From the NCBI GenBank assembly GCA_964437725.1, contig CAYTIB010000114.1, positions 2,695-66,694 of the forward strand: DNA of 64,000 bases. Reading direction: 5' to 3'. The position numbers and the translations under genes were made by a program. Every line of letters begins with the position of its first letter. The first letter of the stretch is position 1. The notes under the pieces are model-generated. The model was not told the DNA's origin. It saw nothing but the letters and a program-made list of their open reading frames with translations, and made no database searches. The DNA comes from an uncultured bacterium. Its GTDB lineage: Bacteria > UBA8248 > JACPRG01 > G963555815. This document shows, in pieces, positions 46,679 to 62,660 of the stretch.

Positions 46679-46805
46679 CGGAAAATCAATCACCTTAGTG
46701 CAACGCTCTGATCGATGGATCTATGCGGATCAGCTTATTTGGTATGCCTGAATCGTGGTAATATTCCAACTGAGCCAATGGTTTTCCGACTTGGAGATTG
46801 CTTAG

Positions 46806-47477
46806 ATGGCCGCAATGGATTCGCGAAGTTTTGTTCAGCATTTGCAAAATGTTTATACAGAGGCTGTATCCGATCGGCGTTTTATATATGCGGAGTGGTT
46901 CAAGCAAAAGGGTGATAGGCTTCGGGAAGCTTATCGGCAGTTGGCGTGTGCCTACTGGGCTAGCTCGGAAGTACATGCAAAGGCTCAGGCACGATTTGAA
47001 CAAGTTCTACGAATCGACACCAAAATCAAGTTGGCTCGTCAAGTTTGGGAGGAAGCCCGGCATTGCAAGGATGTTACTCGTCTGCTCAAAGAATCATTCA
47101 GGGAAAATTTTAAAGCTGATGACTACGAACCGGTACCTGAACTGACGAAATGTTTTTATGATTACTATGGGAACATTGATGACGTGGGTGGTTATTTTGC
47201 CGCGCATAACATGGCAGGAGAACGTACGGCTCTTCTTATGCTTGAAGAGGCCGCCGTATTTGCTAGGGCGGAGAGCATGGGGAGCCTGGCTCGGTTTGCG
47301 GAGAAAGTTATACCCGAGGAACGCCTTCATGTTCGTTTAGGTGAGGAAATTGTGGGAGAATTCGCCGTCGATGAAGATACACAAGAAAGGTTGGAGGAAC
47401 ACTTTAAAAAGGGACTAGAAGCTCATTGGAATTACACAGAGGGGGTTTATCAGAAAATTACCAGTCTAAATGGGTGA
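46806..47477 (+). CDS. Ferritin-like di-iron-carboxylate-type protein, paralog 1 (first ligand Glu substituted)
   Basis: 223 aa. Helix-bundle pattern with WEEARH and PEERLH (two ExxH) and AGERTAL. The position aligned to the first Glu of paralog 2 (LACAEY) is Tyr (LACAYW). Confidence 0.55.
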   Translation: MAAMDSRSFVQHLQNVYTEAVSDRRFIYAEWFKQKGDRLREAYRQLACAYWASSEVHAKAQARFEQVLRIDTKIKLARQVWEEARHCKDVTRLLKESFRENFKADDYEPVPELTKCFYDYYGNIDDVGGYFAAHNMAGERTALLMLEEAAVFARAESMGSLARFAEKVIPEERLHVRLGEEIVGEFAVDEDTQERLEEHFKKGLEAHWNYTEGVYQKITSLNG

Positions 47478-47579
47478 TACATGTTTCCTTTTGCAAAAGT
47501 CGCTATTAACATCTTATAGATGCGGGCCGAAGAGAGAACAAATAGGCTCAAAGATAGGCTATATGAGGAGAGGTGGTCG

Positions 47580-48257
47580 ATGACACCGAAAGAATTTGTC
47601 CAGCACCTTCGGAAAGTTTACGACGAAACGATCTCGGAGCGGACATTCGTCTATGCCGAATGGTTCAAGGAAACGGGGGAACCTCTTCGGGAAGCTTATC
47701 GCCAGCTTGCCTGTGCAGAGTATGCTAGTTCCTGGGTCCATTCGACATTGTTGGAACGCTTTCCTGAGCTTGAACTCGATCTTAAAATCAAGGTTGCGCG
47801 ACAAGTTTGGGAGGAGGCGCGTCATAGTAAGGATGTGAAATCTCTTCTCAAGGAGGCGTTTGACGAAGACTTCGCGATGCAGGATTTCACTCCTGTGAAG
47901 GAATTGACGGATTGCTTTTATGGCTATTACGCGGACATAGATGATCCCGGTGCTTATTTTGCTGCGCACAATGCAGCGGGTGAGCGAACTGCATTGCGGA
48001 TGTTAGAAAAAGTTAGTGCCTATGCCCGCGAGGTAGGGATGCATAGCCTAGCGCGGGTGGCTGAGAAGATTGTCCCGGAGGAGCGCTTTCACGTTCGATT
48101 GGGTGAGCAAGTGGTTGAAAAATTTGCGACAACTGAAGAACGCCAGAAGAAACTAGAGGAATACTTCCGGTCGGGTTTAGATGCGCACTGGAATTATACG
48201 GAAGGGGTGTATCGGAAAATCAACTCCATGAAGAGTACTGAGGACGTTACTGCCTGA
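47580..48257 (+). CDS. Ferritin-like di-iron-carboxylate-type protein, paralog 2 (full E…ExxH…E…ExxH set)
   Basis: LACAEYAS, WEEARH, AGERTAL and PEERFH give the classical di-iron ligand spacing. ATG 47580 is preceded by GAGGAGAGG. The ORF is open from 47520. Confidence 0.55.
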   Translation: MTPKEFVQHLRKVYDETISERTFVYAEWFKETGEPLREAYRQLACAEYASSWVHSTLLERFPELELDLKIKVARQVWEEARHSKDVKSLLKEAFDEDFAMQDFTPVKELTDCFYGYYADIDDPGAYFAAHNAAGERTALRMLEKVSAYAREVGMHSLARVAEKIVPEERFHVRLGEQVVEKFATTEERQKKLEEYFRSGLDAHWNYTEGVYRKINSMKSTEDVTA

Positions 48258-48286
48258 TTTTGGCAGATTTGGGAGGATCAAGAGGC

Positions 48287-48556
48287 ATGGCCCGAATTGT
48301 CGCAATTGAATCCATCCAGGCCTGGGTGTCGGATAAGCTGCACCTTGAAATTTACAAAAGAGAAGCAGCTGACCTTGGAAGACTCGGTCCAAATGAGGAT
48401 CCTCCACTGACTTGGAAGGAGATTTTCCAAAAGGCCGTAGAGGAAGGCAGCCTTACGCCCGAGGAAGTTCCCTATTGGCTAGGAATCGCGACCAAAGGCG
48501 AAGGTGAGGGCAATGTTGAAGATATTGAGCAAGACTATGAAGCTATCCATGTATAG
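48287..48556 (+). CDS. Small acidic hypothetical protein (89 aa)
   Basis: ATG 48287 is preceded by GGGAGGA and lies 30 nt after the stop of the di-iron paralog 2 gene. No family is recognised. Confidence 0.45.
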   Translation: MARIVAIESIQAWVSDKLHLEIYKREAADLGRLGPNEDPPLTWKEIFQKAVEEGSLTPEEVPYWLGIATKGEGEGNVEDIEQDYEAIHV

Positions 48557-48592
48557 CCCTCAGAGTTGCTTTCTTGATTAGGGGTTAGCGAA

Positions 48593-48898
48593 TTGGTGAA
48601 GACCACCAAAGAAATTTGCGAAAATTACTACAACCTTTTTCTCCAGATGGATGATGGTGAGTGGGAAAAAGTGGACCGTCAACTGGCTGGTGATTACACA
48701 CCCGATGAAGTTGAAGCTATTCAGAAAGATTTTGTCGCATTTACACAGTTTGTTTGGTCGAATTTCATCGGCCTCAAATTGGAGTTTGAGGATCCTATCA
48801 TCGAACGAATCATTGCAGCACATGGCTCTGGTGTTTTGGATCAGTTAGATGTTAGTCAGGAGAGCCTGGAAGCTTTGAGGCTCGATTCCACTGGTTAA
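48593..48898 (+). CDS. Small acidic hypothetical protein (101 aa)
   Basis: The ORF follows the previous gene by 37 nt on the same strand (TTG/GTG start at 48593/48596). No family is recognised. Confidence 0.4.
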   Translation: MVKTTKEICENYYNLFLQMDDGEWEKVDRQLAGDYTPDEVEAIQKDFVAFTQFVWSNFIGLKLEFEDPIIERIIAAHGSGVLDQLDVSQESLEALRLDSTG

Positions 48899-48952: not shown

Positions 48953-49966
48953 TTATTGGCCCAGCACTTCTGCAACATCAACAGCACGGCCTTCTTCCGC
49001 TGAACGAGTAGCTGCCACTACTACCGCTAGTGCATTTAAGCCTTCTTCCCCTCCAGTCTCGGGTTTTGATTGAGTTCTGATGCAGTCCGCAAAATGCTCC
49101 AGTTCGTCCTTTACAATGTCCACACCGGGGTATGGTACAGCGACGCGGGCTTCGTCCGTTTCCTTATGGTAGAGACCTTCATACCGATCGTAAAAAAGGT
49201 TACCCATGGTGCTGTAAACGTTGACAAAGTAAGTCCAACGGGGACTAGCAAAGTTACTTCCCACATATCCTTGAACCCCAGACTCGAACTCTACAATGGT
49301 ACTTGTCACATCAGGAATTTCAGCTTTCGTCACCTTTTTTCCCATAAAGGAGGACACCCGAGAAATTGGTCCACCGAGATAATTTAAGGTATCCACGTGG
49401 TGGACACCTAGTTGTGTCAAGGCCCCAGCAGGACTTTCTCCTTTATACCAAAGCCAATCATCCTCCTTGACGGTTATTCCTAGTGGACTGGAGATGTTTG
49501 CATCAATCATCACGAGTTCGCCGAGTTTACCGTTTTCAATCCATTCCTTCTGGACGCGGTGTCCACCGAGGCGCCTTGAGCTGTGGCCGACCATCAGTAT
49601 AATTTCCGCCTTTTTACAGGCGGCAATTACCCGATGACTCTCTTTAATGTCATTTGTGATGGGTTTTTCAACAAACACGTGTTTCCCAGCTTCTGCGGCG
49701 AGAACGGATAGAATTGTGTGAGCGTTGTTCGGGGCGGAAATAATGACCCCTTCAATGTCCTCTCGTCTCAGAATCTCTTCATATGAAGATACCATGTCTA
49801 TTTTATGCTTTTTTGCGCACACCTCCCTTTTTTCTAAGGAACGACTAAAACCCGCAGCAATTTCGATTTTTTCGCTCTTTGCAGCGGCATTTATCAGAAG
49901 TTCACTCCACCTTCCCAGTCCAATCTGTGCAACACGTACTACCCCATTTGATTCTGCTGTTCCCAT
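48953..49966 (-). CDS. Gfo/Idh/MocA-family NAD(P)-dependent oxidoreductase
   Basis: 337 aa with an N-terminal Rossmann motif (VAQIGLGRWS…), the EKP block (VFVEKPI), and a C-terminal alpha/beta domain typical of the family. Confidence 0.8.
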   Translation of the reverse strand: MGTAESNGVVRVAQIGLGRWSELLINAAAKSEKIEIAAGFSRSLEKREVCAKKHKIDMVSSYEEILRREDIEGVIISAPNNAHTILSVLAAEAGKHVFVEKPITNDIKESHRVIAACKKAEIILMVGHSSRRLGGHRVQKEWIENGKLGELVMIDANISSPLGITVKEDDWLWYKGESPAGALTQLGVHHVDTLNYLGGPISRVSSFMGKKVTKAEIPDVTSTIVEFESGVQGYVGSNFASPRWTYFVNVYSTMGNLFYDRYEGLYHKETDEARVAVPYPGVDIVKDELEHFADCIRTQSKPETGGEEGLNALAVVVAATRSAEEGRAVDVAEVLGQ

Positions 49967-52381: not shown

Positions 52382-52528
52382 CATGAAAAAGCGCGATATT
52401 GCGCCTCCCGGAATGAACTATTCAACTAATAATTAAGTAAGATTGTTATGATTTCTTGGGTATGGTGAAAGATTATATGTAACTGCCTTCATACTCGTCC
52501 GGGAAATACTGTTTCGGGAGATTTGAAA

Positions 52529-53212
52529 ATGTTCGATAGAAACCATTTTTTGCCCAGACCTCCTGGTCCCCTTTTTGGTCTTTGGTCCTGGAGGTACTTA
52601 AATAAATTCAAGACCTTAAAGTTGGTAAGTAGTAAGAGGGTTAAATCGTTTTATGAAAAATTCAAAAATCTCTATCCACCTGGGTCGAAGTTCCCAACGG
52701 TTGAGCTGAAAACCTCAGATGGACATGTGGTCAAAACCTCAGATTTTCTTGGCAAAAAACATTTCGTTCTTTTTACAGGGGCGATCACTTGACCACCATT
52801 CCGGCGACAGTTGTTGCCTATGGAAGAATTGAAAACGAAATATATGGGAAGAGACGTAGAATTCTTTGCAATGTATGTTCGCGAACCGCATGCTGGCGAA
52901 AATTGGTTTAAACAATTTCGTAATCACGAAAGTTATGAGCATAAACGCGAGGTTGCTGAGGAGTTGGTCCAAATCAAAAATTTGACGATTGCTGTTCTCG
53001 TGGACAGAATTGACGAGAAATACCACGGGTTACTTGGAAATTTGCCGAATTTCTGCTATGTGGTGAACAAACAAGGGTTTGTGGAATACAAGGCGACCTG
53101 GTTACTTGCTGATGCGGTAGATGAGGTTTTAGCGGAGATGGTAACCAGGGACGACCCTACTCAGCCTATCAAAAAAACATTGGACACCTCAGGCGTTGGA
53201 ACGGAAATCTGA
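52529..53212 (+). CDS. Iodothyronine-deiodinase-like thioredoxin-fold selenoprotein (in-frame UGA = Sec at 52790-52792)
   Basis: Track ORFs 52523-52792 and 52811-53212 share a frame, and TGA 52790 is the only stop. Read-through gives …HFVLFTGAIT-U-PPFRRQL…VEFFAMYVREPHAGENW…. This matches the deiodinase active-site signature (FGS.T-U-PPF … F..IYI.EAH..DGW). A SECIS-like hairpin follows. ATG 52529 is preceded by GGGAGA. Confidence 0.85.
52796..52823 (+). promoter_or_regulatory. SECIS-like hairpin for the deiodinase-like selenoprotein
   Basis: Inner 6-bp stem 52803-52808 / 52813-52818 (one G.U) with apical loop AGUU (52809-52812). Outer stem CCAT/ATGG at 52796-52799 / 52820-52823. The loop lies about 17-20 nt after the UGA. 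Confidence 0.6.
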
Positions 53213-53251: not shown

Positions 53252-55177
53252 TTATTTTTTGCGGAGTACCCGATTGTCACCGACACGCATAGTGAAACGA
53301 GTCGAGTCAAGATGCTCAAGTAACGGAATCGCATGCTTTCTTGTAATACCGAGCAAGTCCCGGAACCCTGACGCGGAGATCTCATTTTTCTCTTTAAGAA
53401 ATGTTGTCAAAGAATCTTTTATGCTTTCCAGGGTTTCTTGGTGATAAAGCAAGTCGTCCTTTACCCGAATCAAAATTCCTTCGCTGACCAGAACCTGAAT
53501 AATTTCTCGGTCTTTCTTATTTGTAATTCCGAGTTTTTCACAGGCCTCGTCAAGCTTCGGGGGTTGATATCCGGACCCTCGGTATAATTGGTCAATTTCA
53601 TCACGTAGTTTGAGCTGATCAGCGACCAGGCTGACTTCATGGCTTGCAAGTCTCACGATTTCCCCGTCGACCACGACCCCCGTTTTCCCGACTTCTTTCA
53701 AAAGGGTTCCAAAAACCTTTTCTGGCACATTTGGAAGGCGGCTTCGAAGCTCTTCCTTTGGGAGCCCTGGGCGGAGGGGGTTCTCGCGGTGAAAATGGTC
53801 AAGGTAGTCATGGACCGTGGATTGTAATATCCCTAAGGCCTCCTGATGGACTGACCATCCTGACGGACTATCGACCCAGATGACTGTACCTTCCTTTTCG
53901 AAATTAGCCAATATCTCTATCAGGTCTTTACGCCCGGTTGCGGTTCGAGGAAGAAGGTCGCATTGAGGTATCCCACTAGACCCTGCCTCATGTAGGAAGA
54001 GACGCACTCGGGCGGCATCATCGGCTTTGTCCAATGCCTCAAACCGTTTCGAAACTTCCGGTCGCATTCGCCGGTGTTTGGGAGGATGACTATCAAGGAT
54101 TTTTCCTCCACTGATGGTGGTAACGGGTGAGTATGACCGAAGTACATAGCGATCTTCCGGACGAACCACGACCGGTCGCTCCAGGCGAAATTGTGCGTAT
54201 CCAGATTCCCCCGGTTGAAGGCGGTCCGTTCCGATTAATGCTACCCTTCCGATGGCCTCAACGGTCCCCTGATGAAAGCGTATTCGATCCCGATTTTTTA
54301 GAGGTCTCGGTGAATTAGGCAGGTGTTGCAGGGTCGCGTCGACCATATAGGAAGGTGCTAAGCTATCTGGGGCAGCCAGGACATCACCTCGCTCCACAGT
54401 CTCTTTGTCTTGTCCTTGGAGATTGATAGCTGTGCGCTGCCCGGCAGTTGCTTCTTTGACATTTTCCCCGTGTACCTGAAGACCTCGTACTCGGGCAGTG
54501 ATGTTCTTTGGATGGAGTATGACTCGCTCATCTAGGTGGACTCTACCGGAAAACAAAGTTCCTGTTACAACCATACCAAATCCTCGCATTGTAAATACAC
54601 GGTCGATAGGAAGGCGAAAGGGGCTGTCCTCATTCCTAACCCCAACATCAGCTGCCCGTATTGCAAGGGCGGATCTGATAGCATCCACGCCCTCACCCGT
54701 TTGTGAGGAGACCGGGATGATGGGCTTATTCTCTAGAAAAGAGTCACTAAGAAATTCATGTACATCTTCCGTTACCAGCTCCAGCCATTCCTCATCGACC
54801 AGATCCTTTTTCGTCAGCGCCACAATGCCATCTCGAATATCGAGTAGTTGGCAGATTGCAAGATGTTCACGCGTTTGTGGCATTACCCCCTCGTCGGCCG
54901 CTATCACAAACATAACTAGATCGATTCCCCCAGCTCCTGCCAACATATTCCGAACAAAACGTTCGTGACCGGGAACGTCGACTACTCCGGCCCGGACGTT
55001 GCCCGGTAGGTCTAGGGAAGCGAACCCCAGGTCGATCGTAATCCCTCTCTCCTTTTCTTCTTTGAGGCGGTCCGTGTTTACACCCGTCAAAGCTTGCACA
55101 AGTGCAGTTTTTCCATGATCGATGTGACCGGCAGTACCTAGAACGACCTGTTTCAAGGCAATCTCCGTTGGATGCAC
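53252..55177 (-). CDS. selB: Selenocysteine-specific translation elongation factor SelB
   Basis: 641 aa with an EF-Tu-like GTPase ([23 protein letters not shown]) followed by long C-terminal winged-helix domains typical of bacterial SelB. It lies immediately downstream of selA. Confidence 0.9.
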
Positions 55178-55201: not shown

Positions 55202-56629
55202 CTAACGTGCCAGCTCTTCGCTTATAGATTCGAGGGCAGCCAGAATATCATGCTCTTCGTTTTGGAAGACAGTTCGCAAATCTAAGAGAAGCAGATCCTC
55301 TTGAATCCGACCAATAATAGGAGGATCAAAGGAGCGGAGTTGCGCTTCGGTTTTCTTGATATCTATTTTCGATATGGGATCTGGACTTATAGCGATGAGT
55401 GCCGTTGGGATTTCCTCTGTTGGCAGAGTTCCACCGCCTGCGCGAGAGCTCCCCGAGATGACACTAGGTCGGAGTTGCTTTGTGGCACGGGTAGAAAGCT
55501 TGGACAAGAGAGAGACCGCACGGTCCCGGACATCTGCTTCAGTTGTCGATAGAAAAGCGATGCTCGGTATTTTGTCAGTTACAGATTGTGGATCCAAATG
55601 TGCCAAAAGGGTTTCTTCGAGAATTGACAAGGACAGCTTATCAAGACGCAAAGCCCTCATTAGCGGGTGCTCTTTTGCTAGATCTGTACATTTGCGATCT
55701 CCTGCAAAAATACCTGCTTGGGGTCCACCGAGAAGTTTATCACCACTGAAAGTGACGAGGTTGGCTCCCTGCCCGAGAATGTCTGATGGGGTTTTCTCCT
55801 TTATGACTCCCAACTTTTTGAGATTCGTTATGTATCCACTTCCTAAGTTCACCATGAAAGGGATCTTATGCTTTCGGCCAAGCTGTGCAAGATCTCGAAT
55901 GCTGACCTCCTCTGTAAACCCCACGATACGGTAATTGCTAGTGTGAACTTTCAACAAAAGGGCAGTGTTTTCCCCTATGGCGTTTGCGTAGTCCATTAGG
56001 CGGGTTTTGTTGGTAGTACCCACTTCATGAAGAATGGCGCCACTTTGTCGCATTACTTCCGGAATGCGAAATCCTCCTCCAATTTCGACCAGTTCACCCC
56101 GAGAGACTATTACTTCTTTTCCTGTGGCTAAAGCCGCAAGGCAAAGTAGGACGGCTCCAGCATTATTATTTACAGCCCCAGCGGATTCTGCTCCGGTTAG
56201 TCGTTGCACTAGCTGCTCAATGGCGGAATCCCGTTGGCCTCTTTTGCCATTTTCTAGATCGAACTCCAGGTTGGAATAGCCTCCGGCGACTTCTGTAGCT
56301 CGCTTCAAGATATCGGTTCCTAAAGGGGCCCTCCCGAGATTTGTATGGAGGACTACACCGCTTGCGTTTACCACTTTCCGAAGTTTTGGCGTCAGAGTTT
56401 CCTGGAGCCGGACCAGTGCTTCGTTTGCGATCTTTTCCGGAGACATATCGATCTCTGATGTGTCTTGAGCTTCGAGAATTGTTTTTCGGTGGTGGGCTAG
56501 TGTTTCGCGCACGCAGTCAGTTGCAGTTTTTTCCGGAAGATCATGGATAGGTTTCTTACGTAGAACTTGAAGTACTTCATCAACAGAGGGTAGTTCCTGG
56601 AGCTCTTTTTGTGTTCCTTTTTTTTTCAT
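55202..56629 (-). CDS. selA: L-seryl-tRNA(Sec) selenium transferase SelA
   Basis: 475 aa with SelA blocks (…VVNASGVVLHTNLGRAPL…, NNNAGAVLL, the PLP-Lys region FSGDKLLGGPQAG). ATG is followed by an A9 run. Confidence 0.9.
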   Translation of the reverse strand: MKKKGTQKELQELPSVDEVLQVLRKKPIHDLPEKTATDCVRETLAHHRKTILEAQDTSEIDMSPEKIANEALVRLQETLTPKLRKVVNASGVVLHTNLGRAPLGTDILKRATEVAGGYSNLEFDLENGKRGQRDSAIEQLVQRLTGAESAGAVNNNAGAVLLCLAALATGKEVIVSRGELVEIGGGFRIPEVMRQSGAILHEVGTTNKTRLMDYANAIGENTALLLKVHTSNYRIVGFTEEVSIRDLAQLGRKHKIPFMVNLGSGYITNLKKLGVIKEKTPSDILGQGANLVTFSGDKLLGGPQAGIFAGDRKCTDLAKEHPLMRALRLDKLSLSILEETLLAHLDPQSVTDKIPSIAFLSTTEADVRDRAVSLLSKLSTRATKQLRPSVISGSSRAGGGTLPTEEIPTALIAISPDPISKIDIKKTEAQLRSFDPPIIGRIQEDLLLLDLRTVFQNEEHDILAALESISEELAR

Positions 56630-60301: not shown

Positions 60302-61546
60302 ATGACCCACCGCTCCTTCATCGATCTCGGCGTGGCCGCGCCCCTTCGGCGTGCCCTGAAAACCGAGAACTATATCAACCCCACGCCGATCCAGGTACGA
60401 GCGATCCCGCTGCTTCTCGCCGAGAAAGACTTGATCGGCATTGCCCAGACCGGTACCGGCAAGACCGCGGCCTTCGCACTGCCGATCCTGCAGCAGCTCT
60501 CCGAGAGGCGCGAACGTGCCGTCCCCTGTGTTGCCCGTGCCCTCATTCTGTCGCCGACGCGCGAACTGGCACTCCAGATTGGAGACAGCTTAAAAACCTA
60601 CGGGCGACATCTTGGGCTTCGTCAGGCCGTCATAATGGGCGGTGTCGGGCAACATTCTCAGGTTCGGGCGCTTGCCCGCAGGGTCGACATCCTAATCGCC
60701 ACCCCAGGACGTTTGCTCGACCTGCTTAGTCAGGGCCACGTCCGACTCAACAAGGTGTCCTTTCTCGTTTTGGATGAAGCCGATCGCATGTTGGACATGG
60801 GCTTCATCCCGGATGTGCGAAAGATCATCGGAGCCCTGCCGAAGCAGCGTCAGTCGATGCTGTTTTCGGCGACGATGCCCCCGGATGTTGTGCATCTGGC
60901 CCGCGAGATCCTCCGTGAACCCGTTCGCGTCGAGGTCTCGCCGAAAACCGTGACCGTGGAACGGATCGACCAGAGAGTCTTCTTCGTCGGGAAAGGCAAC
61001 AAGCGCGCCCTGTTGGCCAGGTTGTTGTTGGACCCAGCGTTGGCCCGAGTCCTCGTCTTTACGCGCACCAAGCGCGGCGCCAACCGGGTGGCTGAGCAGC
61101 TCAGCAGAGCAGGCGTTGCGACTGAGGCGCTCCACGGCAACAAGTCCCAGAACGCTCGCCAGCTTGCCCTGAAGAAGTTCCGAACGGGTCGCTCGCGGGT
61201 CCTCGTCGCCACGGATGTTGCTTCGCGGGGGATCGACGTGGAGGACGTGACCCACGTTATCAACTACGAAGTTCCGGACCTGCCGGAGAGCTACGTCCAC
61301 CGTGTCGGCCGGACAGCCCGAGCAGGCGCTGAGGGCATCGCGCTCTCCTTCTGCGATCCGACTGAGCGCGCCTACCTCCGCAATATCGAGAGGCTGACGA
61401 AGCGCCCCATCGCCGTTGTCGAGAGTCGGCCGATTGATAACGAGAGCGGGTCCCCCCCGCGAGCCACGCCCTCGAGGCCGGCTCTGTCCGCTGCACCTAG
61501 ACGCCGCCGGCGCTCCCGAGGCGTTCAAGCGCGCCGAGCGGTGTGA
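60302..61546 (+). CDS. rhlE: DEAD-box ATP-dependent RNA helicase (RhlE-like)
   Basis: 414 aa with a Q-motif region, AQTGTGKT, PTRELA, DEAD, SAT, HRVGRTARAG and an Arg-rich C-terminal tail. Conspicuously GC-rich. Confidence 0.9.
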   Translation: MTHRSFIDLGVAAPLRRALKTENYINPTPIQVRAIPLLLAEKDLIGIAQTGTGKTAAFALPILQQLSERRERAVPCVARALILSPTRELALQIGDSLKTYGRHLGLRQAVIMGGVGQHSQVRALARRVDILIATPGRLLDLLSQGHVRLNKVSFLVLDEADRMLDMGFIPDVRKIIGALPKQRQSMLFSATMPPDVVHLAREILREPVRVEVSPKTVTVERIDQRVFFVGKGNKRALLARLLLDPALARVLVFTRTKRGANRVAEQLSRAGVATEALHGNKSQNARQLALKKFRTGRSRVLVATDVASRGIDVEDVTHVINYEVPDLPESYVHRVGRTARAGAEGIALSFCDPTERAYLRNIERLTKRPIAVVESRPIDNESGSPPRATPSRPALSAAPRRRRRSRGVQARRAV

Positions 61547-61571: not shown

Positions 61572-62660
61572 TTGACGGAACGAAAGATCGGATTTCCTGC
61601 CCGGGGCGAGTTCAACAGAACCGTGAGAAAGCGCGTGGAGCAGTATTTCACAGAGCACGGTTTTGCCAAGACGGGAAATTGGCGCATGCCGTTAAAAACG
61701 GCAATCATTCTACCATTGCTGCCGGCCTTTTATGTCCTCTTGGTGTTCTTTTCCTCATCGCCTCTCATGGCCGCGATCATAGCTTTCTGTATTGCGCAGG
61801 GGCTCGTGCTCATCGCTTTCAACATCATGCACGACAGCAACCACGGAAGCTATTCGAAAAGCGGCAAAATCAATCGCGTGTTGAGCTTCTCGATGGAGAT
61901 GATCGGAGGCAGCCATCTTCTGTGGCGGCAGAAGCACAACGTCCTGCATCACACCTACACCAATATCAATGAGATGGACAGTGACCTCCACACAGGCGGC
62001 CTGCTCCGTTTAAGCCCGGAGCAGGATTGGAGACCCTGGCATCGCCTTCAACACCTGTATGCTTTCCCGATCTACACCCTGTTGTCGCTGTCGTGGGTCA
62101 CCTACTCCGATTTCAGTAAGCTCTTTTCCGGCCGCATCGGACAATATCGGTTGCGCAAGGCGTCTCCTTCGGAAATGACCACGTTCTTTCTGGGCAAGGC
62201 TTCTTACTTCGGCTACACTCTCGTTCTGCCGCTCCTGTTCCATCCGGTCTTACACGTACTAATCGCATTTGTGGGAATCCATCTGCTGATGGGGTTTACG
62301 CTTTCCATCACCTTTCAACTGGCGCATACCTTGGAAGGGGCGACTTTTCCTAGGCCGGACACGGACACCGGCAGCATCGAAAACGAATGGGCCATTCATC
62401 AGGTCGAAACCACCGCAAACTTCGCACCGAAGAACAAGGTGGCCGTTTGGTATCTGGGAGGGTTGAATTACCAAATCGAGCACCATCTCTTTTCAGAAAT
62501 ATGCCATATTCATTACCCGGCAATCAGCGGAATCGTGAAGCAGACCTGCCGGGATTATTCCATCGACTATGTTAGCTATCCGACGCTCCGCTCCGCCATC
62601 GGCGCCCACTACCGATTTCTCAAAACACTCGGAAAAAGCCCCGCCCTTGTGCATCCTTAG
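61572..62660 (+). CDS. Membrane fatty-acid desaturase, front-end (DesD/delta-6-like) type without cytochrome b5 domain
   Basis: 362 aa with three His boxes, HDSNHG, HNVLHH and QIEHHLF. The Q in box 3 is typical of front-end desaturases. TTG start 26 nt after the helicase stop. Confidence 0.85.
   Translation: MTERKIGFPARGEFNRTVRKRVEQYFTEHGFAKTGNWRMPLKTAIILPLLPAFYVLLVFFSSSPLMAAIIAFCIAQGLVLIAFNIMHDSNHGSYSKSGKINRVLSFSMEMIGGSHLLWRQKHNVLHHTYTNINEMDSDLHTGGLLRLSPEQDWRPWHRLQHLYAFPIYTLLSLSWVTYSDFSKLFSGRIGQYRLRKASPSEMTTFFLGKASYFGYTLVLPLLFHPVLHVLIAFVGIHLLMGFTLSITFQLAHTLEGATFPRPDTDTGSIENEWAIHQVETTANFAPKNKVAVWYLGGLNYQIEHHLFSEICHIHYPAISGIVKQTCRDYSIDYVSYPTLRSAIGAHYRFLKTLGKSPALVHP

What the first reader, a model, noticed from the sequence alone, without database searches (positions are those of the whole stretch)
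46806..48898. Four-gene cassette: two paralogous ferritin-like di-iron proteins plus two small acidic proteins
**Seen in the sequence**
- Genes 46806-47477 and 47580-48257 encode paralogs of about 225 aa. More than half of the positions are identical by eye, for example FVQHL..VY…AEWFK..G..LREAYRQLACA…KIK.ARQVWEEARH.KDV..LLKE.F…AAHN.AGERTAL.MLE…A.E.GM.SLAR.AEK.IPEER.HVRLGE…HWNYTEGVY.KI.S.
- Paralog 2 has the full E…ExxH…E…ExxH pattern (CAEY, EEARH, AGER, EERFH).
- Paralog 1 has Tyr at the first Glu position (CAYW).
- Two short acidic ORFs (89 and 101 aa) follow at 30-37-nt spacing on the same strand, and then a convergent Gfo/Idh/MocA oxidoreductase.

**Established knowledge**
- This ligand pattern defines di-iron carboxylate four-helix-bundle proteins such as ferritin-like proteins, PaaA/PaaC, MiaE and AurF-like oxygenases.
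- Paired catalytic and degenerate paralogs plus small accessory subunits are the design of multicomponent oxygenases such as PaaABC.

**Inference**
- This is a candidate heteromeric di-iron oxygenase or oxidase of unknown substrate with two novel small subunits.
- I cannot assign any of the four to a named family from the sequence alone.
Basis: partly seen in the sequence, partly recalled or inferred. Interest (0 to 1): 0.65.

Follow-up and report, generated by a model that had tools for sequence, protein, structure and literature searches.

The report
Orphan four-gene di-iron protein cassette
Four adjacent genes found only in a few uncultured bacteria encode two sister metal-binding proteins of the ferritin-like di-iron enzyme class plus two small acidic proteins with no known relatives, most likely forming a new multi-subunit oxidising enzyme whose substrate is unknown.

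Summary

**The four genes**
- A: 46806-47477, 223 aa.
- B: 47580-48257, 225 aa.
- C: 48287-48556, 89 aa.
- D: 48593-48898, 101 aa.
- All four are real genes under strong purifying selection.
- They occur in the same order in every one of 14 related loci, while the flanking genes differ.

**A and B**
- They are 62% identical.
- B carries a complete E...ExxH...E...ExxH ligand set.
- A always has Tyr in place of the first Glu (11/11 sequences) and keeps the other five ligands.
- Neither reaches any Pfam or NCBIfam threshold.
- A broadened profile hits only ferritin-like di-iron enzymes in the PDB: aldehyde-deformylating oxygenase, a VlmB homolog, PaaA and R2lox.

**C and D**
- They have no relatives outside the cassette.
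- A confident model of D has no structural match.

**Rarity**
- About 20 clusters among 5.8 billion.
- 4 of 185,579 species genomes.

**Verdict**
- Best reading: a heteromeric ferritin-like di-iron oxidase or oxygenase with two orphan accessory subunits.
- Metal binding, subunit assembly and chemistry are inferred, not shown.
- It is a new family-level variant of a known kind.
- Interest is moderate.

The parts
46756..46764 (+). Candidate extended -10 promoter element (TGgTAATAT) upstream of gene A. Low confidence.
   Evidence: Read from the sequence. The same TGGTAATATTCC word occurs upstream of A in the close relative L005. Other lineages have their own sigma70-like boxes, and no sigma54 motif or shared word was found. 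The consensus scan did not call it because there is no -35 match.
46806..47477 (+). Gene A: 223-aa ferritin-like paralog with Tyr50 in place of the first Glu ligand. It retains E82xxH85, E138 and the second ExxH. GGAG Shine-Dalgarno at 46793-46796.
   Evidence: ORF. 62% identical to B. Tyr in 11/11 A-clade sequences, with the other five ligands invariant. pN 0.08-0.25 against pS 0.76-0.94.
47580..48257 (+). Gene B: 225-aa ferritin-like paralog with the full 4-carboxylate/2-histidine set (E47, E79xxH82, E135, E168xxH171). It is the most conserved of the four and the presumed catalytic subunit.
   Evidence: AF2 model pLDDT 95.4 with seven long helices; the ligands lie on helices 33-55, 66-94, 123-152 and 155-182. 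The ligand columns are the invariant ones in relatives at 21-27% identity. The profile hits ADO, a VlmB homolog, PaaA and R2lox in the PDB.
48287..48556 (+). Gene C: 89-aa acidic (pI 4.4) protein with no Cys and no known relatives. Presumed accessory subunit.
   Evidence: Conserved GGGAGG Shine-Dalgarno and ATG. 70-89% identity across loci, mean column identity 85%. Only 9 clusters among 5.8 billion; every locus long enough to test places C directly downstream of B. No Pfam, NCBIfam, PADLOC, PHROG or PDB match. dN/dS about 0.03 against L005.
48593..48898 (+). Gene D: 101-aa acidic (pI 4.1) all-helical protein with a TTG start and no known relatives. Presumed accessory subunit.
   Evidence: 43-73% identity across loci. 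19 clusters only. AF2 pLDDT 88 with helices 6-18, 21-34, 37-60, 69-77, 79-84 and 89-93. No PDB structural match, best E 2.5 and TM 0.30 or less. No family or PDB sequence match.

Best explanation
The four genes form one self-contained operon. It encodes a cytoplasmic, multi-subunit metalloenzyme of the ferritin-like di-iron-carboxylate class (FDO).

- B provides the canonical four-helix site, with four carboxylates and two histidines. It most likely binds two Fe ions, or Mn plus Fe, that react with O2 or peroxide to oxidise a small substrate that is still unknown.
- A is an ancient paralog. It most likely pairs with B as a heterodimer. Its site is deliberately altered rather than dead: Tyr replaces the first Glu and the other five ligands are kept. 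That points to a tyrosinate-ligated or single-metal site with a structural, redox-relay or regulatory role.
- C and D are small acidic helical proteins unique to this cassette. They most likely act as stoichiometric accessory subunits for assembly, for gating, or for docking a general cellular electron donor, because the operon encodes no reductase or ferredoxin.

Shown: coding status, conservation, strict co-occurrence, ligand conservation and superfamily affinity.
Inferred: metal binding, the A-B-C-D complex, and O2 activation.
Unknown: the substrate.
For: Ligand site
- The ligand set E47/E79xxH82/E135/E168xxH171 is invariant in the family.
- Four of these columns (E79, H82, E135, H171) are invariant and E168 nearly so in relatives at 21-27% identity; E47 is Glu in every sequence except the A clade, which has Tyr.
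- The ligands map onto four long helices of a model with pLDDT 95.

Superfamily
- A broadened profile hits only ferritin-like di-iron proteins in the PDB: ADO at 8e-6, the VlmB homolog 6D9F at 9.5e-6 with all four motifs aligned, PaaA at 1.3e-4, R2lox, Dps-like proteins and bacterioferritin.
- Sub-threshold Pfam hits point the same way: PaaA_PaaC, DUF455 and Ferritin.
- Remote relatives hit DUF455, PaaA_PaaC and MiaE_2. One is fused to rubredoxin, an electron-transfer domain.

Enzymatic rather than storage role
- Remote relatives sit in catabolic contexts or in type II PKS-like biosynthetic clusters.

A-B pairing
- Both paralogs are present in every locus, so the duplication predates all sampled lineages.
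- Only six positions are fixed differently between the clades. These include ligand 1 and a residue inside the second ExxH motif.
- B is more conserved than A: 81% against 74% mean identity.
- A second, independent tandem pair exists in a remote branch, L017.

C and D
- They are always present, sit at short spacings from B and from each other with their own Shine-Dalgarno sequences, and are under purifying selection.
Against: - No experiment or complex model supports the heteromer. Complex prediction could not be run.
- Whole-chain Foldseek matches are weak (E above 1e-3). They rank heme-oxygenase-like proteins (UndA, TenA, CADD, PqqC; TM 0.67-0.75) above ferritin-like ones, so the fold class is not settled by structure.
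- There is no reductase, ferredoxin or substrate-pathway gene in the operon, and no conserved neighbour.
- C and D resemble no known oxygenase accessory protein.
Confidence: 0.55

Rival explanations
1. A and B are two independent homo-oligomeric isozymes of a ferritin-like di-iron protein. C and D are functionally separate small proteins, for example regulators or chaperones, that merely share the operon.
For: No direct evidence for an A-B complex. Many FDOs such as ADO and AurF work as monomers or homodimers. Both A and B keep most or all ligands.
Against: A and B never occur singly in any of the 14 loci. C and D are found nowhere else among 5.8 billion clusters. The clade-fixed differences concentrate at the metal site, as expected for complementary roles.
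Confidence: 0.13
2. It is a non-catalytic or protective ferritin-type system: a heteropolymeric iron-storage or detoxification protein like two-subunit bacterioferritins, or a rubrerythrin-like peroxide scavenger. It would not be a substrate-oxidising oxygenase.
For: The ligand spacing (32-33 residues between the Glu and the ExxH of each helix pair) resembles bacterioferritin and rubrerythrin (my own knowledge). There are weak profile hits to Dps-like proteins, bacterioferritin and ferritin. No substrate-pathway genes are nearby.
Against: The PF00210 score is 14 against a cut-off of 24.5. The proteins are 225 aa with seven helices, not the roughly 160-aa cage subunit. The best profile hits are enzymes: ADO, VlmB homolog and PaaA. 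Remote relatives lie in biosynthetic or catabolic clusters. No rubredoxin domain is present.
Confidence: 0.1
3. A and B belong to the heme-oxygenase-like superfamily (HDO, TenA or PqqC type) rather than the ferritin-like one. They would work like UndA, CADD or BesC, or be metal-free like TenA.
For: The top Foldseek hits are UndA, TenA, CADD, PqqC, AetD and BesC with TM 0.67-0.75. The seven-helix count matches the alpha-7 HO fold. There is a weak full-length PF14518 hit (E 0.041).
Against: HDOs use a 3-His/3-carboxylate set on three core helices (PMC13108848). Here the set is 4 carboxylates/2 His in two ExxH motifs on four helices. No HO-like protein is hit by sequence profile, while many ferritin-like ones are. 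All Foldseek E-values exceed 1e-3.
Confidence: 0.08
4. It is a protein-directed or self-sacrificing system. The di-metal site would generate a Tyr radical or modify a protein residue, with A's Tyr50 or the small proteins C/D as the radical carrier or substrate.
For: There is a strictly conserved Tyr at a ligand position in A. Many invariant Tyr, Trp and His residues occur in both paralogs, for example AHWNYTEGVY. The small proteins are conserved along their full length and found only here. CtCADD is a precedent for self-sacrificial chemistry (PMC13108848).
Against: Purely circumstantial. No modification-site signature was found. C and D are conserved along their whole length like folded subunits, not like substrates with a variable core.
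Confidence: 0.07

Closest known systems
PaaA/PaaC/PaaB core of phenylacetyl-CoA epoxidase (Pfam PF05138)
   Same: Two paralogous ferritin-like subunits encoded side by side, one carrying the full di-iron ligand set, plus a small accessory protein of about 90-100 aa. It is the best, though sub-threshold, Pfam hit, and PaaA is hit by the broadened profile.
   Different: PaaA and PaaC are about 310 and 250 aa, and PaaC lacks the ligands (my own knowledge). Here both are about 225 aa and A keeps 5 of 6 ligands. C and D show no PaaB similarity. No PaaD, PaaE reductase or paa pathway genes are present. The score is below the family cut-off (23.4 against 28.5).
DUF455 (PF04305), an uncharacterised ferritin-like family
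   Same: Nearest named family for the remote relatives of A and B. Similar length and the same E/ExxH/E/ExxH pattern.
   Different: A and B score 16 bits or less against a cut-off of 34.3. DUF455 has no assigned function in the searched literature. No paired-paralog or C/D association is known for it.
Soluble ferritin-like di-iron oxygenases with solved structures: aldehyde-deformylating oxygenase, VlmB homolog 6D9F (AurF-like), R2lox
   Same: All four ligand motifs align in profile matches at E of about 1e-5 to 1e-4. They are of the same size class as ADO, roughly 212-265 aa (chain lengths).
   Different: Identity is too low for family membership. Those enzymes are single-gene products without an altered-ligand paralog or dedicated small subunits.
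Heme-oxygenase-like di-metal oxidases (UndA, CADD, BesC, AetD) and TenA/PqqC
   Same: Best whole-chain structural superpositions (TM 0.67-0.75) and the same seven-helix size class.
   Different: HDOs have a 3His/3carboxylate set on three helices. Here it is 2His/4carboxylate on four helices. There are no sequence-profile hits to them.
Bacterial multicomponent monooxygenases (sMMO, toluene and phenol hydroxylases)
   Same: The design principle of a catalytic subunit, a paralogous non-catalytic subunit and small accessory proteins. There are weak Foldseek hits to T4moH and sMMO chains.
   Different: Their subunits are much larger, and the beta subunit has no ligands (my own knowledge). Effector, Rieske ferredoxin and reductase genes are absent here. 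D has no structural match in the PDB, best TM 0.30, so it does not look like an MmoB/T4moD-type effector.

Membership tests
Ferritin-like di-iron carboxylate superfamily (FDO) | Ligand motif E...ExxH...E...ExxH (4 carboxylates / 2 histidines) | tested here: met
   B: E47, E79xxH82, E135, E168xxH171, invariant in 7/7 B-clade sequences. A: Y50 plus the other five ligands, in 11/11. The same columns are conserved in relatives at 21-27% identity.
Ferritin-like di-iron carboxylate superfamily (FDO) | Ligands supplied by four separate core helices | tested here: met
   The AF2 model (pLDDT 95.4) places the ligands on helices 33-55, 66-94, 123-152 and 155-182.
Ferritin-like di-iron carboxylate superfamily (FDO) | Detectable sequence relationship to established members | tested here: met
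   The broadened profile A6 hits ADO (8e-6), VlmB homolog 6D9F (9.5e-6), PaaA (1.3e-4), R2lox, Dps-like proteins and bacterioferritin, and hits no other fold class. The narrow family profile alone finds nothing.
Ferritin-like di-iron carboxylate superfamily (FDO) | Binds two Fe (or Mn/Fe) ions and reacts with O2 or peroxide | not testable with these tools
   Requires metal analysis and spectroscopy.
PaaABC(D)E phenylacetyl-CoA epoxidase | PF05138 (PaaA_PaaC) at or above the gathering score | tested here: not met
   B scores 23.4 bits and A 17.3 bits against a cut-off of 28.5, and only a stretch of about 55 residues matches. TIGR02158 scores 18.2 against 133.
PaaABC(D)E phenylacetyl-CoA epoxidase | Partner genes PaaB, PaaD, the PaaE reductase and paa pathway genes adjacent | tested here: not met
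   C and D match no family. The neighbours are RarA and Gfo/Idh/MocA in the window. Elsewhere they are glnA/amt/CutA1 or Rieske/GMC genes.
DUF455 (PF04305) | Score at or above the gathering threshold | tested here: not met
   B scores 16.3 bits against 34.3, and A has no hit. One remote relative, P0027, does pass at 134 bits.
Heme-oxygenase-like di-metal oxidases (HDO) | 3 His / 3 carboxylate ligand set on three core helices of the alpha-7 fold | tested here: not met
   Only two conserved His ligands, in two ExxH motifs on four helices. The definition is taken from PMC13108848. PF14518 scores 14.1 against 28.9.
Heme-oxygenase-like di-metal oxidases (HDO) | Alpha-7 heme-oxygenase fold | tested here: inconclusive
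   The top Foldseek hits are HO-like (TM 0.67-0.75), but all have E above 1e-3 and rmsd of 3.7-4.5 A. Ferritins align with TM 0.64 normalised on their own length.
Ferritin / bacterioferritin / Dps (PF00210) | Family score above the cut-off and a cage-forming four-helix subunit of about 160 aa | tested here: not met
   14.0 bits against 24.5. The protein is 225 aa with seven helices.
Bacterial multicomponent monooxygenases | MmoB/T4moD-type effector, Rieske ferredoxin or reductase components | tested here: not met
   The D model has no structural match in the PDB. C and D have no family or PDB sequence hit. C has no Cys and D has one non-conserved Cys, so they are not Fe-S or rubredoxin proteins. 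The structure of C was not modelled.

The most novel reading that the evidence does not exclude
The cassette encodes a previously unseen type of heterodimeric di-metal enzyme. In it, the strictly conserved Tyr-for-Glu ligand swap in subunit A creates a tyrosinate-ligated, Tyr-radical or cross-linked cofactor that works together with the canonical site in B. The two orphan small proteins C and D would be dedicated partners or even protein substrates. That would make it a new protein-radical or protein-modifying di-iron system, not a routine small-molecule oxygenase.
Probability: 0.12. Interest if true: 0.75.

Novelty: new variant of a known kind. Interest (0 to 1): 0.45.

Why it matters
Ferritin-like di-iron enzymes carry out some of biology's hardest oxidations, including alkane formation, N-oxygenation, epoxidation and radical generation. 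New families have repeatedly brought new chemistry.

This cassette stands out for four reasons:
- It is an unannotated family that is extremely rare.
- It has a conserved pair of sister subunits.
- One subunit carries a conserved change of a metal ligand (Glu to Tyr).
- It comes with two small partner proteins that have no relatives anywhere.

It is compact at about 2.1 kb and self-contained, so it can be synthesised and co-expressed directly. If active, it would add a new subunit architecture, and possibly a new reaction, to the di-iron enzyme repertoire of uncultured marine and soil bacteria.

Tried and rejected
1. **C and D as distant paralogs.** MAFFT repeatedly cross-aligned C's tail (NVEDIExDY) with D's middle (EVEAIQKDF). 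hhalign gave a probability of only 1.4% over 10 columns, so I rejected the idea.
2. **Modelling C and D together.** Linker fusions gave misaligned MSAs. I abandoned this and modelled D alone; C was not modelled.
3. **A conserved RNA element in the long A-B spacer (83-229 nt).** There is no sequence conservation and the fold z-score is -0.33. Rejected.
4. **Nitrogen control, suggested by the glnA/amt adjacency in L001-L004 and L008.** There is no sigma54 motif and no shared upstream word. Each lineage has its own sigma70-like boxes, and the adjacency is absent in the window, L005 and L007. Left as a weak lead only.
5. **Natural A-B or other fusions as Rosetta-stone evidence.** P0008, P0018, P0020, P0077 and P0080 look like frameshifted or chimeric assemblies. 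Rejected.
6. **Defence system, phage or mobile origin.** No PADLOC or PHROG hit, none in viral contigs, and only 25-27% relatives on plasmids. Rejected.
7. **D as an acyl-carrier protein.** A GADSL-like motif occurs in some lineages, but the Ser is not conserved and the model has no structural match in the PDB, where acyl-carrier proteins are well represented. Rejected.
8. **Host taxonomy.** All records are labelled only 'bacterium'. The source is unresolved beyond marine and other metagenomes.
9. **The narrow family profile against PDB sequences.** It found nothing. Only the profile including remote relatives reached solved structures.
Full report
**1. Observation**

The region holds four same-strand ORFs:
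- A, 46806-47477 (223 aa)
- B, 47580-48257 (225 aa)
- C, 48287-48556 (89 aa)
- D, 48593-48898 (101 aa)

A convergent Gfo/Idh/MocA gene follows at 48953-49966. A and B are 62% identical (E = 4e-104). B has the CAE47Y, E79ARH82, AGE135R and E168RFH171 motifs, and A has Y50 at the first position.

Start sites were checked against homologs:
- B starts at 47580, not at the upstream in-frame ATG at 47520.
- C starts at the ATG at 48287, behind a conserved GGGAGG Shine-Dalgarno sequence.
- D starts at the TTG at 48593, because residues before its first internal Met are conserved.

The gaps are 29 nt and 36 nt. C has pI 4.4 and D has pI 4.1.

**2. Are they real genes, and do they belong together?**

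Against five other lineages, synonymous sites are saturated (pS 0.70-0.97). Non-synonymous differences stay at 0.04-0.37 for all four genes. For C against its closest relative, dN/dS is about 0.03.

The A-B-C-D order is found in every related locus. These are L001-L008 from contig look-ups and genome scans and L009-L011, L013 and L014 from metagenomes. Wherever a contig extends past one gene, the next cassette gene follows.

The flanks are not conserved:
- RarA upstream and Gfo/Idh/MocA downstream in the window and L005.
- A Trans_reg_C regulator, amt and glnA upstream and CutA1 downstream in L001-L004 and L008.
- A divergent Rieske/VanA_C oxygenase and a GMC oxidoreductase in L007.

Each lineage has its own sigma70-like boxes upstream of A. 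There is no sigma54 site and no shared word. The four genes are therefore the conserved unit.

**3. Rarity**

| Search | Result |
|---|---|
| B against 5.77 billion protein clusters | 20 clusters |
| Exhaustive profile search of 1.84 billion representatives | 4 family representatives, then about 31 faint relatives |
| Species genomes | 4 of 185,579, all unclassified MAGs |
| JGI metagenome records (241 million) | 3 contigs |
| Viral contigs | none |
| C profile against the same clusters | 9 clusters; none shown to lie outside the cassette |
| D profile against the same clusters | 19 clusters; none shown to lie outside the cassette |

Contig names indicate marine metagenomes among the sources. 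Host taxonomy could not be resolved.

**4. What A and B are**

No Pfam or NCBIfam model reaches its threshold. The best scores are PaaA_PaaC at 23.4 bits against 28.5, DUF455 at 16.3 against 34.3, Haem_oxygenas_2 at 14.1 against 28.9 and Ferritin at 14.0 against 24.5.

The remote relatives are 21-27% identical and mostly of similar length (212-247 aa). They hit DUF455, PaaA_PaaC and MiaE_2, and one carries a C-terminal rubredoxin. In an alignment with them, the invariant columns are essentially the ligands: E79, H82, E135 and H171, with E168 nearly invariant. The first Glu is present in every sequence except the A clade.

The AF2 model of B is very confident (pLDDT 95.4, pTM 0.90). It has seven long helices, and the ligands lie on four of them: 33-55, 66-94, 123-152 and 155-182.

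A profile that includes the remote relatives hits only ferritin-like di-iron proteins among PDB sequences:
- Aldehyde-deformylating oxygenase, E = 8e-6.
- The VlmB homolog 6D9F, E = 9.5e-6, with all four motifs aligned.
- PaaA, E = 1.3e-4.
- R2lox, Dps-like proteins and bacterioferritin.

VlmB is a di-iron oxygenase of azoxy biosynthesis (PMC11705231). It is classed as an AurF-like ferritin oxidase (PMC2922099).

By contrast, whole-chain Foldseek ranks heme-oxygenase-like proteins first: UndA, TenA, CADD and PqqC at TM 0.67-0.75. Every hit has E above 1e-3. The defining ligand set of that superfamily is 3 His and 3 carboxylates on three core helices (PMC13108848), and it is not present here.

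I therefore place A and B in the ferritin-like di-iron (FDO) superfamily, as a new family nearest to DUF455. The exact fold class is not settled structurally, because I could not inspect coordinates. DUF455 itself has no assigned function in the searched literature.

**5. The paralog pair**

A-clade and B-clade sequences separate cleanly. Mean identity is 74% within A, 81% within B and 65% between them. The duplication therefore predates all sampled lineages, and B is the more constrained copy.

Only six positions are fixed differently between the clades. The first is ligand 1: Glu in 7/7 B sequences and Tyr in 11/11 A sequences. Another lies inside the second ExxH motif: Phe170 in B and Leu174 in A. 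The other five ligands are invariant in both clades.

So A is not a ligand-less scaffold like PaaC or the beta subunits of the multicomponent monooxygenases. It has a specifically altered site that has been maintained.

A second, independent tandem pair was found in a remote branch (L017). Its two copies are 26% identical to each other and both have full ligand sets. They sit next to an XDH/CODH-type molybdo-enzyme, and no C- or D-like genes accompany them. Pairing of paralogs thus recurs in this clade, whereas C and D are specific to the cassette.

**6. The small proteins**

- C is highly conserved (mean column identity 85%) and has no Cys.
- D is less conserved (67-69%).
- D folds confidently (pLDDT 88) as a small helical protein. 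It has no structural match in the PDB, with best E of 2.5 and TM of 0.30 or less.
- Neither matches Pfam, NCBIfam, PADLOC, PHROGs or PDB sequences.
- On this evidence they are not PaaB-like, not MmoB/T4moD-like, not carrier proteins and not Fe-S or rubredoxin electron carriers.
- C and D are not detectably homologous to each other (hhalign probability 1.4%). They do share a short acidic motif, [VI]E.I[EQ].D[FY].

**7. Functional context of the wider clade**

- Remote relatives lie beside amidohydrolases, an aldehyde dehydrogenase and a Cys-rich 69-aa protein (L016).
- Others lie beside a molybdo-hydroxylase (L017), an SDR and ABC transporter (L015), or a TPP enzyme (L012).
- On plasmids of Priestia megaterium and Staphylococcus saccharolyticus they sit inside a conserved type II PKS-like biosynthetic cluster. 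That cluster has KS and KS-like (beta-ketoacyl synthase N-terminal-like) genes, methyltransferases, a cyclase, cupins and an SRPBCC protein; the Staphylococcus copy also encodes a phosphopantetheine-binding carrier protein.

These contexts favour an enzymatic, oxidative tailoring or catabolic role for the clade over iron storage.

**8. Most likely mechanism**

B binds a di-metal cofactor at the 4-carboxylate/2-histidine site and activates O2 or peroxide. A pairs with B and contributes a Tyr-modified site with a structural, redox-relay or regulatory role. C and D are dedicated accessory subunits. Electrons would come from a general cellular donor, because no reductase is encoded. I put this at about 0.55.

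Rivals:

| Rival | Confidence |
|---|---|
| Independent A and B isozymes with unrelated small proteins | 0.13 |
| Non-catalytic storage or peroxide-protection role | 0.10 |
| Heme-oxygenase-like enzyme | 0.08 |
| Protein-radical or protein-modifying system | 0.07 |

Metal binding, complex formation and chemistry are all inferred.

**9. Novelty and score**

The superfamily and the design principle are known: a catalytic subunit, a paralogous partner and small subunits. Three things are new:
- The family itself.
- The conserved Glu-to-Tyr ligand swap in the partner subunit.
- Two orphan small subunits.

The cassette is also extremely narrowly distributed. I class it as a new variant of a known kind, with moderate interest (0.45). 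It is attractive and easy to test, but it is not in itself very surprising to a specialist, and there is no substrate clue.

Noticed in passing
window 52523-53212 (+): A single gene split by an in-frame TGA at 52790-52792 ('FVLFTGAIT-U-PPF'). With U replaced by C, the 229-aa product hits T4_deiodinase (PF00837, 46.6 bits against a cut-off of 27), Redoxin and AhpC-TSA. A GGCGAC-AGTT-GTTGCC hairpin starts 15 nt after the TGA and is a candidate SECIS element. The gene lies directly beside selB (53252-55177) and selA (55202-56629). It is a likely deiodinase-like selenoprotein.
   Followed up: yes
window 60302-61546 (+): A DEAD-box helicase gene sits in a patch of 59% GC against about 47% for the rest of the window. 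This may be compositional or may reflect horizontal acquisition. A membrane fatty-acid desaturase follows at 61572-62660.
   Followed up: no
window 48512-48538 (C) and 48707-48733 (D): C's tail (NVEDIEQDY) and D's middle (EVEAIQKDF) share a short acidic motif, [VI]E.I[EQ].D[FY]. It repeatedly misled MAFFT. It is not significant by hhalign and might be a common docking motif.
   Followed up: partly
L017 4137-5663: A remote branch of the same clade also has a tandem pair of paralogs (218 and 220 aa, 26% identical to each other, both with full ligand sets). It lies directly downstream of an XDH/CODH-type molybdo-enzyme, and no C- or D-like genes accompany it.
   Followed up: partly
L018 6845-7486 and L019 6043-6693 (Priestia megaterium and Staphylococcus saccharolyticus plasmids): Relatives at 26-28% identity, annotated as 'ferritin-like domain-containing protein', sit inside a conserved type II PKS-like cluster. 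That cluster holds KS and KS-like (beta-ketoacyl synthase N-terminal-like) genes, methyltransferases, an AMP-binding enzyme, cupin, cyclase and SRPBCC genes (plus a carrier protein in the Staphylococcus copy), with a TrmH-type methyltransferase gene upstream on the opposite strand.
   Followed up: partly
L001-L004, L008 (upstream of the cassette): In one lineage group the cassette lies directly downstream of an OmpR-type regulator, an ammonium transporter (in L003 and L004) and glutamine synthetase. CutA1 is downstream, and CoxS/CoxE/MoxR-like genes lie further upstream. No shared promoter motif was found, and the window lineage lacks this arrangement.
   Followed up: partly
P0008, P0018, P0020, P0077, P0080: Several database 'homologs' are chimeric or frameshifted gene calls from low-coverage contigs. 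One example is half of A joined through out-of-frame sequence to half of B. They are not natural fusions.
   Followed up: yes
L016 5818-6027: A remote single-copy relative (P0025) is followed by a Cys-rich 69-aa protein (CxC..C..C.C..C..C) that matches no Pfam family. Another relative (P0024) carries a rubredoxin fusion. These may be electron-transfer partners, and the cassette studied here lacks any such partner.
   Followed up: partly
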